Source: Escherichia phage FS2B
Sequence record: MW929182
Strand: one strand, 5' to 3'
DNA length: 58,790 nt
This document shows positions 3,221 to 25,053 of the stretch, in pieces. Both the position numbers and the translations under genes were made by a program. The notes under the pieces were generated by a model. The model made no database searches, was not told where the DNA came from, and saw only the letters and a program-made list of their open reading frames with translations. Positions within the stretch are counted from its first letter, which is position 1. Every line of letters starts with the position of its first letter.

Positions 3221-3439
3221 ATGAAAATGATGAAACAAGCTGCATATGGTTTAATATGTTTAGGCGCAGGTGTTGTGGTATCCACCGCAGTTCCTGTAGG
3301 CGCAGTTCATCCATTAGTAACTGTCCCTGCTCCAGTAGAGAAGCTCAGCTCTCAATGTAAGCAGAGAACAATTCAAAATAACTTAGTTGTTATTTGCCCT
3401 GATGCTGAATCTAACGCTCTGAGAAAGATACTACCTTAA
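3221..3439 (+). CDS. small membrane or secreted protein upstream of lysozyme (possible holin-like)
   Basis: ATG with GGAGA RBS; N-terminal hydrophobic stretch GLICLGAGVVVSTAVPVGAV; position immediately upstream of the lysozyme gene. Confidence 0.35.
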   Translation: MKMMKQAAYGLICLGAGVVVSTAVPVGAVHPLVTVPAPVEKLSSQCKQRTIQNNLVVICPDAESNALRKILP

Positions 3440-3468: not shown

Positions 3469-3960
3469 ATGGATAACGCCGCATTGCCACCTGTACAACT
3501 AAACTTAAGCCCAGCTGGAATGGAATTCATCATGAAGCATGAGGGTATGAGAACCAAGGCTTATAAAGATTCCGCAGGTATCTGGACTATATGTGTAGGG
3601 GCTACGCGCGATATGAATGGTTATCCGGTTAGACAAGGATTAACGTATTCTATAGAGGATTGTCTAGCTCTGCTAGATAGAGACACACAAGACTCTGTTC
3701 GTGCTACTCAGAAGAACATAAAGGTTCCTTTACTAGTTCATGAGTTTGATGCACTCACTTCTTTCAACTTCAATGTTGGCAGTGGGGCTTTGAGCACATC
3801 TAAGTTAAGGAAGGTTATCAATGGAGAGGTGAAAGGGGATGTATATTCCGAATTTCTTCGTTGGGATAAAATAACGGTCAAGGGAGAGAAGCAGAGAAGT
3901 CAGGGTCTTCATAATAGAAGGGTTGCAGAAGCTGATCTTTACACCGAAGGTAAATATTAA
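3469..3960 (+). CDS. phage lysozyme, glycoside hydrolase family 24 (T4 lysozyme-like)
   Basis: AAGGAGG RBS; N-terminal MKHEGMRTKAYKDSAGIWTICVGAT matches the GH24 lysozyme catalytic region. Confidence 0.85.
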   Translation: MDNAALPPVQLNLSPAGMEFIMKHEGMRTKAYKDSAGIWTICVGATRDMNGYPVRQGLTYSIEDCLALLDRDTQDSVRATQKNIKVPLLVHEFDALTSFNFNVGSGALSTSKLRKVINGEVKGDVYSEFLRWDKITVKGEKQRSQGLHNRRVAEADLYTEGKY

Positions 3961-21721: not shown

Positions 21722-23207
<1,486 letters not shown>

Positions 23208-23208
<1 letters not shown>

Positions 23209-23468
23209 TATTCTATTCCACGCTCTTTCAGAGCTTCTAACAATCCGTTGTGATTGGCAGCACATTCTGTGTACTGGTCCTGATACCACTCCAACGTAGT
23301 GGCTAGTGCTTTTCCTTGAGCACTTTCTAAAAGAGGTAGGTCAACCCTACATTCAGCTTTTAGGTTTGTTGGTAAGGGCATTGATTGCCTGCTGTTGTCG
23401 CTCATTGAACAAGCTGACATACTCATCACTAGCGCAGACATTATAAAAAACTGGTTTAGTTTTCTCAT
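23208..23468 (-). CDS. o-spanin-like outer membrane lipoprotein, overlapping the i-spanin gene
   Basis: Internal ATG gives MRKLNQFFIMSALVMSMSAC with a lipobox-like MSAC; Pro-containing mature part with two Cys; starts inside the 3' part of 23353..23703 in another frame. Confidence 0.45.
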
Positions 23469-23703
23469 AATGCATCTCTTTATAAACGGTTTCCGTGTTC
23501 TTCTTCCAGTTAGATAAACCGGTAAGAACTCTCTGAGCAACTTCATCAGCTGCCCTACTTCTTTCAATCTCTAACTCTTGTTGATGCTTTTCTTTATCCA
23601 GATTGTTACTGTCTGTTCTGTACTCATTAAACTTCATGCCACCAAAGAATACAAGAGCTGAAAAGATAACAAATCCTAGATTATCACTTAAAGTGCTTTG
23701 CAT
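23353..23703 (-). CDS. i-spanin-like protein (N-terminal TM helix plus periplasmic coiled coil)
   Basis: ATG 23703; TM segment GFVIFSALVFFGG then a charged helical region; overlaps the lipoprotein gene as in Rz/Rz1 pairs. Confidence 0.45.
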   Translation of the reverse strand: MQSTLSDNLGFVIFSALVFFGGMKFNEYRTDSNNLDKEKHQQELEIERSRAADEVAQRVLTGLSNWKKNTETVYKEMHYEKTKPVFYNVCASDEYVSLFNERQQQAINALTNKPKS

Positions 23704-23712
23704 ATTGACTCC

Positions 23713-23740
23713 AACGAAAAAAGCCACCCGGAGGTGGCTA
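23713..23740 (-). terminator. intrinsic terminator downstream of the SSB-like gene
   Basis: Minus-strand hairpin AGCCACCTCCGGGTGGCT followed by TTTTTTCG. Confidence 0.55.
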
Positions 23741-23760
23741 AGCTATAACAAGGAGAGTTA

Positions 23761-24507
23761 TTAGAATGGGCTATCGTTGTCGTCTTCGTAAGTAGAAGCA
23801 GGCTCTTTATCAATCGTAGGGATTGAAGGAGTAGCTTCTTTCTGCTCTGTTTCAGAAGCACGAGTAATTTCACGACCAGCCAGAGGCATGTTCTTAGCGT
23901 CATTAGCTTGAGTAAGCAGGTTGCGCTGGAACGGGAACATCAGTTGATAGGATGCTACGTTCTCGTCGGTTTCAGCATATGGTTCGAAGAATACCAGAGG
24001 ACTACGAGCTTCACCAACTGCTGCACGATATTTGGTTGGGATTGGAGAAATGGTCTTGATGGAGTTTTTAACTTCACCAGCTTTGTTAGTATAAGAGTTA
24101 ACCAGAATGTTAACAGGCTGACCTAACAGAACATCCTTGAACCAAGATAGATCACCTTTCAGTGCTTGAATACTTGGGTCAATCATCTTGCAAAGATCAA
24201 GAATACCAGAGTTCTTAGCTCGTGGGTTTACATCATAGCTCTTGAACTGGCAAGCCGGACGTGGTTCTAATGCCTTACCATCGGAATCTTTACCAGTAGC
24301 ATCAACACCAATCAGCTCGAAAGCTAAATCCATACGGAAAGCCGGATTCTTAGGAGTTACTGCTTTGGTCTTCGGGTCAATCCAAGGGTCACGATTGTGA
24401 ACACCCAAACCTACTACACGAACGATACGAGCTTCGTATTCACCATCAGGGATTACATCGTAGTTGGATTTACGGGAAGAAGTTGCGATAGTTGGAATCA
24501 TAGACAT
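23761..24507 (-). CDS. single-stranded DNA-binding protein-like (acidic C-terminal tail)
   Basis: C-terminus STYEDDNDSPF resembles SSB acidic tails ending in Phe; size and placement in the replication module; preceded by a long AT-rich leader. Confidence 0.45.
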   Translation of the reverse strand: MSMIPTIATSSRKSNYDVIPDGEYEARIVRVVGLGVHNRDPWIDPKTKAVTPKNPAFRMDLAFELIGVDATGKDSDGKALEPRPACQFKSYDVNPRAKNSGILDLCKMIDPSIQALKGDLSWFKDVLLGQPVNILVNSYTNKAGEVKNSIKTISPIPTKYRAAVGEARSPLVFFEPYAETDENVASYQLMFPFQRNLLTQANDAKNMPLAGREITRASETEQKEATPSIPTIDKEPASTYEDDNDSPF

Positions 24508-24923
24508 ATTTTAATTTCCTTATTTAATTTGAAAGATTGTTGCTCTCTTTGAGCGGTTATGTATAGTATACATTACGCTTATACCGATAAGAGTACTATA
24601 TAATATAAGTATCTTTGGTAGTAGATATATCACACTAGTAATGTATATACTGTATAGCTGATAAGGTTATTGCAGGCTTGTATATTGGGCAATTCAAAGA
24701 ATCCCTTGCAAGTACCGAAGGGCAGGAGCCACCTGCGAGATAAAAATAGAGAATTAAGGAATCCTTGATTTAGGTTGTAGGGACTCCTAGGGACTTTGAT
24801 TCTCTATTTAAAAGAATATTAATTACTTATTACCTAAATAATTAACTAACTTACTTAAACCAAATTCAATAAGAATAGATAAAAAGATTATTCCTAAGAA
24901 AGCTAAAAAGTAAAGGATATAAG
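24508..24923 (-). promoter_or_regulatory. AT-rich 416-bp non-coding region with short repeats (candidate promoter or origin region)
   Basis: No ORF of 60 aa or more on the coding strand; repeated GTATA/TATAC-type motifs and GATAAG repeats; lies upstream of the SSB-like gene. Confidence 0.3.
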
Positions 24924-25053
24924 TTACCATTCAAGTAAACCTTTAAAGTTAGATTTTTCTACTATCCTCTGATAACGAAGATTAGAATCAGCTTGTTTCT
25001 TTAACATCTCATTATATTGATCTCTGATAGAGTCTTTATGTACTACAGGTTCT

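What the first reader, a model, noticed from the sequence alone, without database searches (positions are those of the whole stretch)
23208..23703. Overlapping spanin-like gene pair located in the replication arm, far from the lysozyme
A TM plus coiled-coil protein (23353..23703) and a lipoprotein whose gene starts inside it in another frame (23208..23468) have the architecture of i-spanin/o-spanin pairs. They are on the opposite strand and about 20 kb from the lysozyme and its candidate holin, so lysis genes are dispersed.
Basis: partly seen in the sequence, partly recalled or inferred. Interest (0 to 1): 0.35.

Follow-up and report, generated by a model that had tools for sequence, protein, structure and literature searches.

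The report
Known overlapping spanin genes of phiEco32-like phage
The two overlapping genes are real and are the outer-membrane-breaking "spanin" pair of a phiEco32-like E. coli phage, but this pair, its overlap and its position far from the lysozyme gene are already on record, so the finding is correct and ordinary.

Summary
On the minus strand, 23353..23703 encodes a 116-aa protein with an N-terminal transmembrane segment. 23208..23468 encodes an 86-aa lipoprotein precursor (lipobox MSAC, Cys20) in the +1 frame, overlapping the first gene by 116 nt.

The window is a phiEco32-like Kuravirus (97-98% nucleotide identity). The pair corresponds to phiEco32 genes 39 and 38. Kongari et al. 2018 already list it as an overlapped two-component spanin with the same lengths (116 and 86 aa) and the same 116-nt overlap. 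RefSeq names gene 39 "Rz-like spanin".

Comparative data support translation of both frames:
- Codon-position diversity follows each frame in its own region.
- The lipobox Cys and the overlap persist in relatives down to about 30% identity.
- In phages 9NA and PM-CJR the homologous pair closes a holin-endolysin cassette.
- In SU7-type relatives an HNH gene splits the pair, yet a new lipoprotein signal peptide is present.

The endolysin (3469..3960) and the annotated holin (3221..3439) lie 19.2 kb away on the other strand, as claimed. This dispersal is also already visible in published Kuravirus annotations.

Two corrections apply. "Coiled-coil" is not supported (Pepcoil found none in phiEco32 gp39), and most database records truncate the o-spanin to 57 aa. 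Novelty: already known. Interest: low.

The parts
23353..23703 (-). i-spanin gene (homologue of phiEco32 gene 39), 116 aa. N-terminal TMD, helical periplasmic domain, conserved Cys90.
   Evidence: ORF and translation. PHROG 1152 Rz-like spanin, 3.9e-37. 95% identity to phiEco32 gp39. Annotated 'Rz-like spanin' in RefSeq. Listed in SpaninDB Table S4.
23635..23679 (-). Codons for the i-spanin transmembrane segment (about residues 9-23, LGFVIFSALVFFGGM).
   Evidence: Kyte-Doolittle 15-residue windows of 1.5-2.2. A published Kuravirus annotation by DeepTMHMM reports an N-terminal TMD (PMC13417854).
23208..23468 (-). o-spanin gene (homologue of phiEco32 gene 38 with the correct upstream start), 86-aa lipoprotein precursor and 67-aa mature protein.
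   Evidence: phrog_2425 at 3.7e-26, covering profile positions 3-82 of 86. Identical to the phiEco32 86-aa form. Same start as in Kongari Tables S1/S4. tblastn finds full-length matches in 194 phage records.
23409..23420 (-). Lipobox codons M17-S18-A19-C20 of the o-spanin. Cys20 is the predicted lipidation site and Ser at +2 predicts outer-membrane sorting.
   Evidence: The Cys is invariant, and the lipobox reads MSAC, MSSC, LSAC, TSSC, ISAC, IAGC, MSGC or LMAC in relatives.
23353..23468 (-). 116-nt region read in two frames (i-spanin C-terminus and o-spanin signal peptide plus first mature residues).
   Evidence: Nucleotide diversity is depressed at all three codon positions relative to the flanks.
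23709..23712 (-). Shine-Dalgarno GGAG for the i-spanin.
   Evidence: Invariant in 13 relatives.
23716..23739 (-). Hairpin AGCCACC-UCCG-GGUGGCU followed by U6, lying between gene 40 and the i-spanin. It looks like a terminator or an RNA-stability hairpin.
   Evidence: Terminator scan. Nearly invariant in 13 relatives whose coding flanks are only about 77-94% identical. Fold of -17.6 kcal/mol.
24567..24575 (-). TAATGTATA, an exact match to the phiEco32 gp36-sigma promoter element, about 60 nt upstream of gene 40. It corresponds to the published promoter upstream of phiEco32 gene 40 (called P40 here) and is the likely source of spanin transcripts.
   Evidence: Motif search. Sequence. PMC8948821 gives the consensus tAATGTAtA and reports experimentally mapped promoters upstream of genes 6, 13, 26, 40, 58 and 68.
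23761..24507 (-). Gene 40 homologue (248 aa, unknown function), the first gene downstream of P40 and upstream of the spanin pair. Context only.
   Evidence: phrog_6599.
22768..23208 (-). Macro-domain gene (gene 37 homologue). Its ATG overlaps the o-spanin stop codon (TAATG), which suggests co-transcription and translational coupling. Context only.
   Evidence: Pfam Macro, 1.3e-10.
3469..3960 (+). Endolysin (gene 17 homologue), the functional partner, 19.2 kb away in the late structural arm.
   Evidence: (Phage_lysozyme, 4.3e-32).
3221..3439 (+). Annotated holin (gene 16 homologue), 72 aa with a single hydrophobic segment.
   Evidence: phrog_11161 holin, 2.8e-50. PMC13417854 notes that only a signal peptide was predicted in the homologue.

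Best explanation
The locus is the two-component spanin of a phiEco32-like Kuravirus, in the 'overlapped' gene architecture.

The 116-aa product is anchored in the inner membrane by its N-terminal TMD and projects a mostly helical domain of about 90 aa into the periplasm. The 86-aa product is exported, lipidated at Cys20, cleaved by signal peptidase II and sorted to the outer membrane, since Ser at +2 is not a Lol-avoidance signal. Its mature 67 aa are a flexible tether of about 23 residues followed by a C-terminal helix.

By analogy with lambda Rz/Rz1, the two proteins bind through their periplasmic ends to form a bridge across the periplasm. That bridge is held inactive by the peptidoglycan mesh. 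Once the late-expressed endolysin (released by the holin) removes the mesh, the complexes collapse and fuse or disrupt the outer membrane, completing lysis.

Shown here: the sequence features, homology, conservation of both frames, and synteny of homologues with lysis cassettes.

Inferred: topology, lipidation, complex formation, membrane fusion, and transcription from the gp36-dependent promoter upstream of gene 40 (called P40 here) by read-through of the conserved hairpin. That transcription route would give middle-class timing, ahead of or independent from the late holin and endolysin.
For: Anatomy:
- TMD, lipobox, 116-nt +1-frame overlap and SD sequences.

Identity:
- The window is 97-98% identical to phiEco32, SU10 and related phages.
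- phi32_39 is annotated as Rz-like spanin.
- Kongari 2018 lists the phiEco32 spanin with identical sizes and overlap. It places the i-spanin in the JH2 family and the o-spanin in the NJ01/ECBP2/KBNP1711/PhiEco32 family.
- PHROG 1152 match at 3.9e-37.

Both frames under selection:
- Diversity peaks at o-frame position 3 in the o-only part (0.386, against 0.176 and 0.034 at positions 1 and 2).
- Diversity peaks at i-frame position 3 in the i-only part (0.26).
- Diversity is depressed in the overlap.

Deep conservation:
- 9NA, PM-CJR, phiSUSP1, CL1 and an IMG/VR contig all keep the TMD protein, the +1-frame lipoprotein, the invariant lipobox Cys, i-spanin Cys90 and o-spanin Cys69. These are relatives at 28-49% identity.

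Guilt by association:
- In 9NA and PM-CJR the pair directly follows the holin and endolysin genes.

Natural experiment:
- In KM01, EK010, E20-1, Bas86/87, SU7 and PAS59 an HNH_3-AP2 endonuclease gene separates the two genes.
- The mature o-spanin there is preceded by a different but still canonical lipoprotein signal, for example MLTKKKQKSCLVIFLASSLMAC.

Uniqueness:
- This is the only convincing lipoprotein-signal ORF in the window.

Timing:
- TAATGTATA lies upstream of gene 40, matching the published promoter upstream of phiEco32 gene 40.
- The SU10 authors class these CDSs as middle genes.
Against: - No experiment on this or any Kuravirus spanin was found. SU10 proteomics did not detect either protein.
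- There is no Pfam match to lambda Rz (Phage_lysis) or Rz1.
- No coiled-coil was predicted by Pepcoil for phiEco32 gp39.
- The mature o-spanin has only 3 Pro and a predicted helix, unlike proline-rich, unstructured Rz1.
- The i-spanin N-terminus carries no positive charge. [quoted passage not shown] The N-in/C-out topology is therefore not predicted by the positive-inside rule.
- A terminator-like hairpin lies 13 nt (with its U-run, 12 nt) upstream of the i-spanin ATG, so expression depends on read-through or processing.
- The AlphaFold models are single-sequence and low confidence (pLDDT 61).
Confidence: 0.9

Rival explanations
1. The pair is an envelope complex with a role other than lysis. 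Examples would be a middle-phase superinfection-exclusion or receptor-masking lipoprotein with an inner-membrane partner, comparable to T5 Llp or Cor-type lipoproteins. Outer-membrane disruption would then be done by something else, or not be needed.
For: - The genes lie in the middle-class replication and transcription arm, downstream of a gp36-dependent promoter, and not with the late holin and endolysin.
- There is no Pfam Rz/Rz1 match.
- No coiled-coil is predicted.
- The o-spanin is helical rather than proline-rich.
- In Felixounavirus and Suspvirus relatives the pair is also away from lysis genes, near rIIB.
Against: - Homologues in 9NA and PM-CJR are the terminal genes of holin-endolysin cassettes.
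- A TMD protein with an overlapping out-of-frame lipoprotein is the defining spanin arrangement (PMC6139136).
- No other spanin candidate exists in the window, including next to the endolysin.
- Dispersed spanin genes are known elsewhere. In Privateer the spanins are about 12 kb from the endolysin. T4 is the prototype of the separated spanin architecture, and from my own knowledge its spanin genes pseT.3/pseT.2 lie away from e and t.
Confidence: 0.06
2. Only the database-annotated products are made. That would be the 116-aa membrane protein and a 57-aa cytoplasmic protein starting at the internal ATG 23381, as phi32_38 is annotated. The upstream signal-peptide reading frame would be an untranslated by-product of the i-spanin coding sequence.
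For: - GenBank and RefSeq records for phiEco32, SU10, ShigP1 and others annotate a 174-nt CDS.
- The SD before ATG 23468 is modest (AAGAG).
- No proteomic detection exists.
Against: - The 57-aa start lies after the lipobox Cys. Kongari et al. describe exactly this kind of start-site error (64 o-spanins with a wrong start) and give the 86-aa form for phiEco32 and NJ01.
- The phrog_2425 profile aligns from residue 6.
- Signal peptide and lipobox are conserved in relatives at about 30% identity.
- Phages that lost the original signal through the HNH insertion carry a replacement signal with a lipobox.
Confidence: 0.03
3. The whole feature is a chance coincidence of a hydrophobic ORF and an out-of-frame Cys-containing ORF.
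For: Short ORFs with hydrophobic starts are common in AT-rich phage DNA.
Against: - Coding periodicity is seen in both frames.
- tblastn finds full-length matches to the o-spanin in 194 phage records and matches to the i-spanin in 427.
- It is the unique convincing hit in the six-frame lipobox scan.
Confidence: 0.01

Closest known systems
phiEco32 gp39/gp38 spanin (SpaninDB; Kongari et al. 2018, PMC6139136). i-spanin family 'JH2', o-spanin family NJ01/ECBP2/KBNP1711/PhiEco32.
   Same: - Same genes in a sister genome: i-spanin 95% identical, o-spanin 100% identical.
- Same lengths (116 and 86 aa), same 116-nt overlap, same strand and same neighbours.
   Different: Only point substitutions, mainly in the first 120 nt or so of the i-spanin gene.
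Salmonella phage 9NA gp59 plus an overlapping unannotated lipoprotein, and Proteus phage PM-CJR gp063 plus an overlapping lipoprotein.
   Same: - Homologous i- and o-spanins. The o-spanins are 34-39% identical. The i-spanins of this group, such as ESSI-2 (placed with 9NA in Kongari's o-spanin grouping), are about 30% identical.
- Same +1-frame overlap at the same conserved EKT...F.N.C motif, with the same conserved Cys residues.
   Different: There the pair is the last element of a contiguous holin-endolysin-spanin cassette. Here it is 19 kb from the endolysin, on the other strand, in the middle-gene arm.
SU7/EK010/KM01/Bas87-type Gordonclarkvirinae spanins (separated by an HNH endonuclease gene).
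   Same: The mature o-spanin and most of the i-spanin are homologous, with the same genomic position and the same upstream hairpin.
   Different: - A roughly 545-bp insert carrying an HNH_3-AP2 gene sits at the lipobox position.
- The i-spanin has its own non-overlapped C-terminus.
- The o-spanin signal peptide is a different sequence, read across the 3' end of the HNH gene.
- The window has the uninterrupted overlapped form.
Lambda Rz/Rz1 (prototype two-component spanin).
   Same: The functional plan is the same: a type II inner-membrane protein plus an outer-membrane lipoprotein encoded in the +1 frame of the same DNA, with periplasmic Cys residues (PMC6139136).
   Different: - No detectable sequence homology (no Pfam Phage_lysis or Rz1 hit).
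- Overlapped rather than embedded.
- No predicted coiled-coils.
- The o-spanin is 67 aa with a predicted helix and 3 Pro, against 40 aa with 10 Pro and no structure in Rz1.
- Not in a lysis cassette.
Phages with dispersed lysis genes: Proteus phage Privateer, and T4 (pseT.3/pseT.2 versus e and t).
   Same: Spanin genes lie away from the endolysin. In Privateer they are about 12 kb apart (PMC7881722). For T4, the spanin names and the distance from e and t are from my own knowledge; T4 is shown as the prototype of the separated spanin architecture in PMC6139136.
   Different: The spanin families are different. T4's two spanin genes are separated rather than overlapped.

Membership tests
Two-component spanin (criteria of Summer 2007 / Kongari 2018) | i-spanin: small protein with a single N-terminal TMD and a periplasmic C-terminal domain. 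| tested here: met
   A single hydrophobic segment covers residues 9-23 with about 90 hydrophilic residues after it. The N-in/C-out orientation itself is not predicted by charge, because the N-terminus is net negative (note on NJ01). Distant homologues do have basic N-termini.
Two-component spanin (criteria of Summer 2007 / Kongari 2018) | o-spanin: signal peptidase II signal with lipobox and invariant Cys, and no Asp at +2 (outer-membrane sorting). | tested here: met
   The signal is MRKLNQFFIMSALVMSMSAC followed by S. The Cys is invariant in all relatives examined. SignalP itself was not available. A published Kuravirus annotation using SignalP 6 reports the lipobox.
Two-component spanin (criteria of Summer 2007 / Kongari 2018) | o-spanin gene embedded in, overlapping, or immediately following the i-spanin gene. 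| tested here: met
   116-nt overlap in the +1 frame, the same as the phiEco32 entry in Table S4.
Two-component spanin (criteria of Summer 2007 / Kongari 2018) | Located in or next to the lysis cassette (usual, not obligatory). | tested here: not met
   The pair is 19.2 kb from the endolysin and holin, on the opposite strand. The criterion is met by the homologues in 9NA and PM-CJR.
Two-component spanin (criteria of Summer 2007 / Kongari 2018) | Required for outer-membrane disruption; complements lambda Rz/Rz1. | not testable with these tools
   No experimental paper on a Kuravirus spanin was found.
Lambda Rz / Rz1 sequence families (Pfam Phage_lysis, Rz1) | Significant match to the Pfam profiles. 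| tested here: not met
   hmmscan at E up to 1 gave no Rz or Rz1 family for either protein.
PHROG 1152 'Rz-like spanin' / SpaninDB i-spanin family JH2 | Profile match, or near-identity to listed members. | tested here: met
   3.9e-37 over residues 2-116. 95% identical to phiEco32, a listed JH2 member.
SpaninDB o-spanin family NJ01/ECBP2/KBNP1711/PhiEco32 (PHROG 2425) | Near-identity to listed members, or a profile match. | tested here: met
   Identical to the phiEco32 86-aa sequence. 96.5% identical to NJ01. phrog_2425 at 3.7e-26.
Coiled-coil i-spanin (lambda-type CC1-linker-CC2) | Predicted coiled-coil segments in the periplasmic domain. | tested here: inconclusive
   Pepcoil gave 0 segments for phiEco32 gp39 (Table S3). 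Jpred gave 61% helix. The single-sequence AlphaFold model shows helices 36-76, 79-91 and 93-111 at pLDDT about 61. No coiled-coil predictor was run here.

The most novel reading that the evidence does not exclude
The spanin of this phage group may be regulated and built differently from the lambda paradigm.

Regulation: it would be made as a middle-class product from the promoter upstream of gene 40 (P40), through a nearly invariant CUUCGG-type hairpin with a U-run that sits 12 nt before its start codon. The flanking CUCC can pair with the Shine-Dalgarno GGAG, which would tune the spanin dose independently of the late holin and endolysin.

Structure: the complex would lack coiled-coils and use a helical rather than proline-rich o-spanin, implying a distinct way of joining or fusing the two membranes.

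A related open point lies outside the window. The HNH-bearing relatives suggest that homing-endonuclease cassettes can convert overlapped spanins into separated ones while supplying a replacement i-spanin C-terminus and a replacement lipoprotein signal.
Probability: 0.12. Interest if true: 0.35.

Novelty: already known. Interest (0 to 1): 0.1.

Why it matters
There is little new biology here. The value is practical, as an annotation correction. Most deposited records of this phage group, including RefSeq phiEco32 and SU10, start the o-spanin at an internal ATG and so lose the signal peptide and lipobox. Automated pipelines then call it 'hypothetical protein'. The correct start is ATG 23468 (86 aa).

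The case also illustrates that spanin genes need not sit in the lysis cassette, which matters for engineering or lysis-timing studies of therapeutic Kuraviruses.

The HNH-split variant in sister genera is a neat natural confirmation that the lipoprotein signal is under selection.

Tried and rejected
- **Group I intron in KM01/Bas87.** One Bas87 record joins the i-spanin from two pieces, which suggested an intron. I rejected this for three reasons. Rfam found no intron family in L010 or L012 at E up to 1. The junctions leave no 3'-terminal G. The insert begins with a diverged duplicate of the i-spanin C-terminus that gives a complete ORF, and it ends with a new signal peptide.
- **Pfam.** The search gave no informative family for either spanin.
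- **IMG/VR.** The scan with the i-spanin gave only 6 loci, so I used the GenBank phage collection instead.
- **Primary phiEco32 papers.** Savalia 2008 (PMC2587145) and Pavlova 2012 (PMC3275717) are not held. Promoter and timing statements therefore rest on how later open papers cite them.
- **AlphaFold.** Single-sequence models of both proteins have low confidence (pLDDT 61), so I used them only for secondary structure. No fold search was attempted.
- **Proteomics.** The SU10 table lists neither spanin.
- **Large protein-database searches.** I did not run them, because the identity of the genes was already settled by near-identical annotated genomes and the published catalogue.
Full report
**1. 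What is in the sequence**

On the minus strand an ORF runs from ATG 23703 to a stop at 23353 (116 aa). GGAG lies 6 nt upstream of its ATG. A second ORF runs from ATG 23468 to a stop at 23208 (86 aa). It lies in the +1 frame relative to the first and shares 116 nt with it.

The first protein has one strongly hydrophobic segment at about residues 9-23, followed by about 90 hydrophilic residues and a single Cys (C90). The second begins MRKLNQFFIMSALVMSMSAC. That is a basic n-region, a hydrophobic core and the lipobox M-S-A-C20, followed by Ser. By the established Lol-avoidance rule (Asp at +2 retains a lipoprotein in the inner membrane), Ser predicts sorting to the outer membrane. The mature part is 67 aa with two further Cys, at precursor positions 40 and 69, and three Pro.

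I scanned every start codon in all six frames of the 58.8-kb window for a lipoprotein-type signal. This ORF was the only convincing hit. The other hits were an internal stretch of a 268-aa protein and an antisense ORF.

**2. Where the window comes from**

The region 22000..25000 is 97-98% identical to phiEco32, SU10, KM01 and dozens of other Kuravirus genomes of the subfamily Gordonclarkvirinae. The two ORFs correspond to phiEco32 genes 39 and 38.

RefSeq calls gene 39 "Rz-like spanin". Gene 38 is annotated in phiEco32, SU10 and ShigP1 as a 174-nt CDS (57 aa). That CDS starts at the internal ATG equivalent to window 23381, which lies downstream of the lipobox Cys. In ShigP1 this truncated CDS is nevertheless labelled "o-spanin".

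**3. Already catalogued**

Kongari et al. 2018 (PMC6139136) annotated spanins by hand in 677 phage genomes. Their Table S4 lists "Phieco32 ovl, -1, 35417-35768, 35272-35533, overlap 116". That is a 116-aa i-spanin and an 86-aa o-spanin sharing 116 nt, which is exactly the arrangement found here.

Their family tables place the i-spanin in the 15-member "JH2" family (FelixO1-like plus phiEco32-like phages). The o-spanin falls in a four-member family (NJ01, ECBP2, KBNP1711, PhiEco32). The same paper reports 196 unannotated o-spanins and 64 with a wrong start, and the gene 38 records are an example of the wrong-start error.

The window's i-spanin is 95% identical to phiEco32 gp39. Its o-spanin is identical to the phiEco32 86-aa sequence.

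Two recent Kuravirus genome papers describe the same genes. ZCEC16 ORFs 35 and 36 are described as "overlapping spanins" with an N-terminal TMD and a lipobox by DeepTMHMM and SignalP 6 (PMC13417854). vAPECPW12 is described with holin at 2191-2409, endolysin at 2439-2930 and o-spanin at complement 21764-21937 (PMC12733307).

**4. Independent tests that both frames are real**

*(a) Profiles.* The i-spanin matches PHROG 1152 "Rz-like spanin" at 3.9e-37. The o-spanin matches phrog_2425 at 3.7e-26 from residue 6 onward, so the match includes the signal peptide.

*(b) Codon-position diversity across 11 distinct relatives.*

| Region | i-frame pos 1 (= o-frame pos 3) | i-frame pos 2 (= o-frame pos 1) | i-frame pos 3 (= o-frame pos 2) |
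|---|---|---|---|
| i-only | 0.103 | 0.066 | 0.26 |
| overlap | 0.041 | 0.040 | 0.146 |
| o-only | 0.386 | 0.176 | 0.034 |

In the i-only part diversity peaks at i-frame third positions. In the o-only part it peaks at o-frame third positions and is lowest at o-frame second positions, which is a clear coding signature for the o-frame. In the overlap all three positions are depressed. Toward the mature o-spanin the pattern shifts from i-frame-dominated to mixed.

*(c) Deep conservation.* tblastn finds full-length matches to the 86-aa protein in 194 phage records and matches to the i-spanin in 427. I examined 9NA, Proteus phage PM-CJR, phiSUSP1, the Felixounavirus CL1 and an IMG/VR contig, at 28-49% identity to the window proteins. 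Each has a TMD protein with the conserved EKT..F.N.C motif. Each also has a lipoprotein starting in the +1 frame at the same place, with lipoboxes ISAC, IAGC, MSGC or MSAC. i-spanin Cys90 and o-spanin Cys69 are conserved throughout.

*(d) Synteny.* In 9NA and PM-CJR the pair is the last element of a holin-endolysin cassette.

*(e) A natural experiment.* In KM01, E20-1, EK010, Bas86, Bas87, SU7 and PAS59 a roughly 545-bp insert sits at the lipobox position. It carries an HNH_3-AP2 endonuclease gene.
- The insert starts with a diverged copy of the i-spanin C-terminus, so the i-spanin stays complete (113-114 aa).
- In KM01 the old signal peptide remains as a dead stub.
- The unchanged mature o-spanin is preceded by a new canonical lipoprotein signal read across the 3' end of the HNH gene. 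In KM01 this is ...HIKKKLLSCTGILLAFSLSAC. In Bas87 it is MLTKKKQKSCLVILLASSLMAC and in SU7 MLTKKKQKSCLVIFLASSLMAC.
- The SU7 record already annotates this as "O-spanin".
- Rfam finds no group I intron there.

Three different signal peptides in front of one mature domain, all keeping the lipobox Cys, argue strongly that lipidation is required.

**5. Genomic context and likely expression**

The endolysin is at 3469..3960 (+) (Pfam Phage_lysozyme, 4.3e-32). The annotated holin is at 3221..3439 (+) (phrog_11161). Both lie among the tail genes of the late arm, as in phiEco32 genes 16 and 17. The spanin pair is 19.2 kb away on the other strand.

The pair sits between gene 40 (unknown function) and the genes for a macro-domain protein, the phage sigma factor gp36, a GTP-binding-domain protein (gene 35), a dNMP kinase and an exonuclease. 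It is also already implicit in published annotations. [quoted passage not shown]

An exact TAATGTATA lies at 24567..24575 (-), about 60 nt upstream of gene 40. This is the single-element promoter recognised by gp36 holoenzyme. Promoters of this kind were mapped experimentally upstream of phiEco32 genes 6, 13, 26, 40, 58 and 68 (PMC8948821). I refer to the one upstream of gene 40 as P40. The leftward gene cluster belongs to the middle class in phiEco32. The SU10 authors also list these CDSs as middle genes.

Between gene 40 and the i-spanin ATG lies the hairpin AGCCACC-UCCG-GGUGGCU followed by U6. This 50-nt stretch is almost invariant in 13 relatives whose coding flanks are only about 77-94% identical. 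It is retained even in SU10, where a different HNH gene is inserted just upstream. Most relatives have the extra-stable CUUCGG loop. The minimum-energy fold also pairs an upstream CUCC with the GGAG Shine-Dalgarno.

The o-spanin stop overlaps the macro-domain start (TAATG).

My inference, not shown, is this. Genes 40, 39, 38 and 37 (and perhaps 36) are co-transcribed from P40. The hairpin acts as a partial terminator or as an RNA processing or stability element that sets the spanin dose. The 7-11 paper discusses comparable CUUCGG hairpins upstream of that phage's sigma gene. Making spanins earlier than the holin and endolysin is compatible with the accepted model, in which spanin complexes are harmless until the peptidoglycan is removed.

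**6. Mechanism**

The most likely mechanism is the standard two-component spanin model described in PMC6139136. The i-spanin sits in the inner membrane and the lipidated o-spanin in the outer membrane. They bind each other in the periplasm, and the conserved Cys residues plausibly form stabilising disulfides. The outer membrane is disrupted or fused after the endolysin acts. Everything past the sequence features is inferred.

There are differences from lambda Rz/Rz1:
- There is no Pfam homology.
- The architecture is overlapped rather than embedded.
- Pepcoil finds no coiled-coil in phiEco32 gp39, while Jpred gives 61% helix for the i-spanin and 46% helix for the o-spanin.
- The single-sequence AlphaFold model of the i-spanin (pLDDT 61) is all-helical.
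- The single-sequence AlphaFold model of the o-spanin (pLDDT 61) shows a disordered tether plus a helix at residues 44-82.
- The Kuravirus i-spanin N-terminus lacks positive charge, so the positive-inside rule does not by itself predict the topology. Distant homologues do carry basic N-termini.

**7. Rival explanations**

- A non-lysis envelope function, such as superinfection exclusion, is suggested only by the middle-arm location and the atypical o-spanin. The cassette-embedded homologues and the absence of any other spanin candidate count against it. I give it about 0.06.
- The database-style 57-aa product is contradicted by the conserved and replaceable signal peptide. I give it about 0.03.
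- Chance is excluded.

**8. Verdict**

The feature is already known, both as a catalogued spanin of phiEco32 and in recent Kuravirus annotations.

The useful by-products are the corrected o-spanin start (23468, not 23381), the conserved hairpin in front of the i-spanin, and the HNH-split variant in sister genera.

No experimental study of this spanin family was found. SU10 proteomics did not detect either protein.

Noticed in passing
L010 1201..2241 (KM01); L012 688..1725 (Bas87); L020 309..1346 (SU7); L021 (EK010). Insertion point corresponds to window ~23416..23423.: In seven distinct phages (nine hit records: KM01, E20-1, EK010, Bas86, Bas87, SU7, PAS59) an HNH_3-AP2 homing-endonuclease gene sits exactly at the o-spanin lipobox, turning the overlapped spanin into a separated one. 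The insert supplies a diverged i-spanin C-terminus and, across the 3' end of the HNH gene in another frame, a new lipoprotein signal peptide. In KM01 the old signal peptide survives as a dead stub. One Bas87 record instead joins the i-spanin as if spliced, but no group I intron was found by Rfam.
   Followed up: yes
window 23704..23760 (-): The short spacer before the i-spanin (CUCUCCUUGU.AUAG.UU-AGCCACC-UYCG-GGUGGCU-UUUUUUCGUUGGAG) is almost invariant in 13 relatives whose coding flanks are only about 77-94% identical. It persists in SU10 downstream of an inserted HNH gene. It looks like a CUUCGG-type terminator or stability hairpin, and the upstream CUCC can pair with the Shine-Dalgarno GGAG. 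No covariation is available to test the fold.
   Followed up: partly
window 23381 (internal ATG) versus 23468: GenBank and RefSeq records of phiEco32, SU10, ShigP1, EK010 and KM01 annotate the o-spanin as a 57-aa CDS starting after the lipobox Cys. In KM01 that CDS is even mislabelled 'Appr-1-p processing enzyme family protein'.
   Followed up: yes
window 3221..3439 (+): The annotated holin (72 aa) has a single hydrophobic segment after a basic N-terminus and a 40-residue C-terminal tail with two Cys. A 2026 Kuravirus paper reports that DeepTMHMM sees only a signal peptide in the homologue. The holin assignment in this phage group appears to rest on position and on family naming (phrog_11161), not on tested function.
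   Followed up: no
window 24557..24575 and 24639..24647: The P40 promoter element TAATGTATA (-) is immediately abutted by a near-copy on the other strand, forming a palindrome (TTATGTATA-G-TATACATTA on the + strand). A second exact TAATGTATA lies on the + strand 64 nt away, pointing antisense into genes 41/42. A possible divergent or antisense promoter was not examined further.
   Followed up: no
window 22768..23208 (-); L019 4677..5309 (CL1): A macro-domain (Appr-1-p processing / O-acetyl-ADP-ribose deacetylase) gene starts on the o-spanin stop codon (TAATG). In the Felixounavirus CL1 a macro-domain gene also lies about 1.7 kb downstream of the homologous spanin pair. This hints at a shared module between these otherwise unrelated phage groups.
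   Followed up: no
window 22767..22796 (-): A strong sigma70-like promoter match (TGGACA-18-TATAAT, 11 of 12) lies inside the end of the macro-domain gene, just upstream of the phage sigma-factor gene. This agrees with the published bioinformatic prediction of a sigma70 promoter within phiEco32 gene 37.
   Followed up: partly
window 23583..23703 (first ~120 nt of the i-spanin gene): The window differs from phiEco32 mainly in the 5' third of the i-spanin gene (about 26 of 31 identities per block), while the rest of the locus is nearly identical. This suggests a local recombination mosaic. The i-spanin is 100% identical to that of phage Ptacy1479.
   Followed up: no
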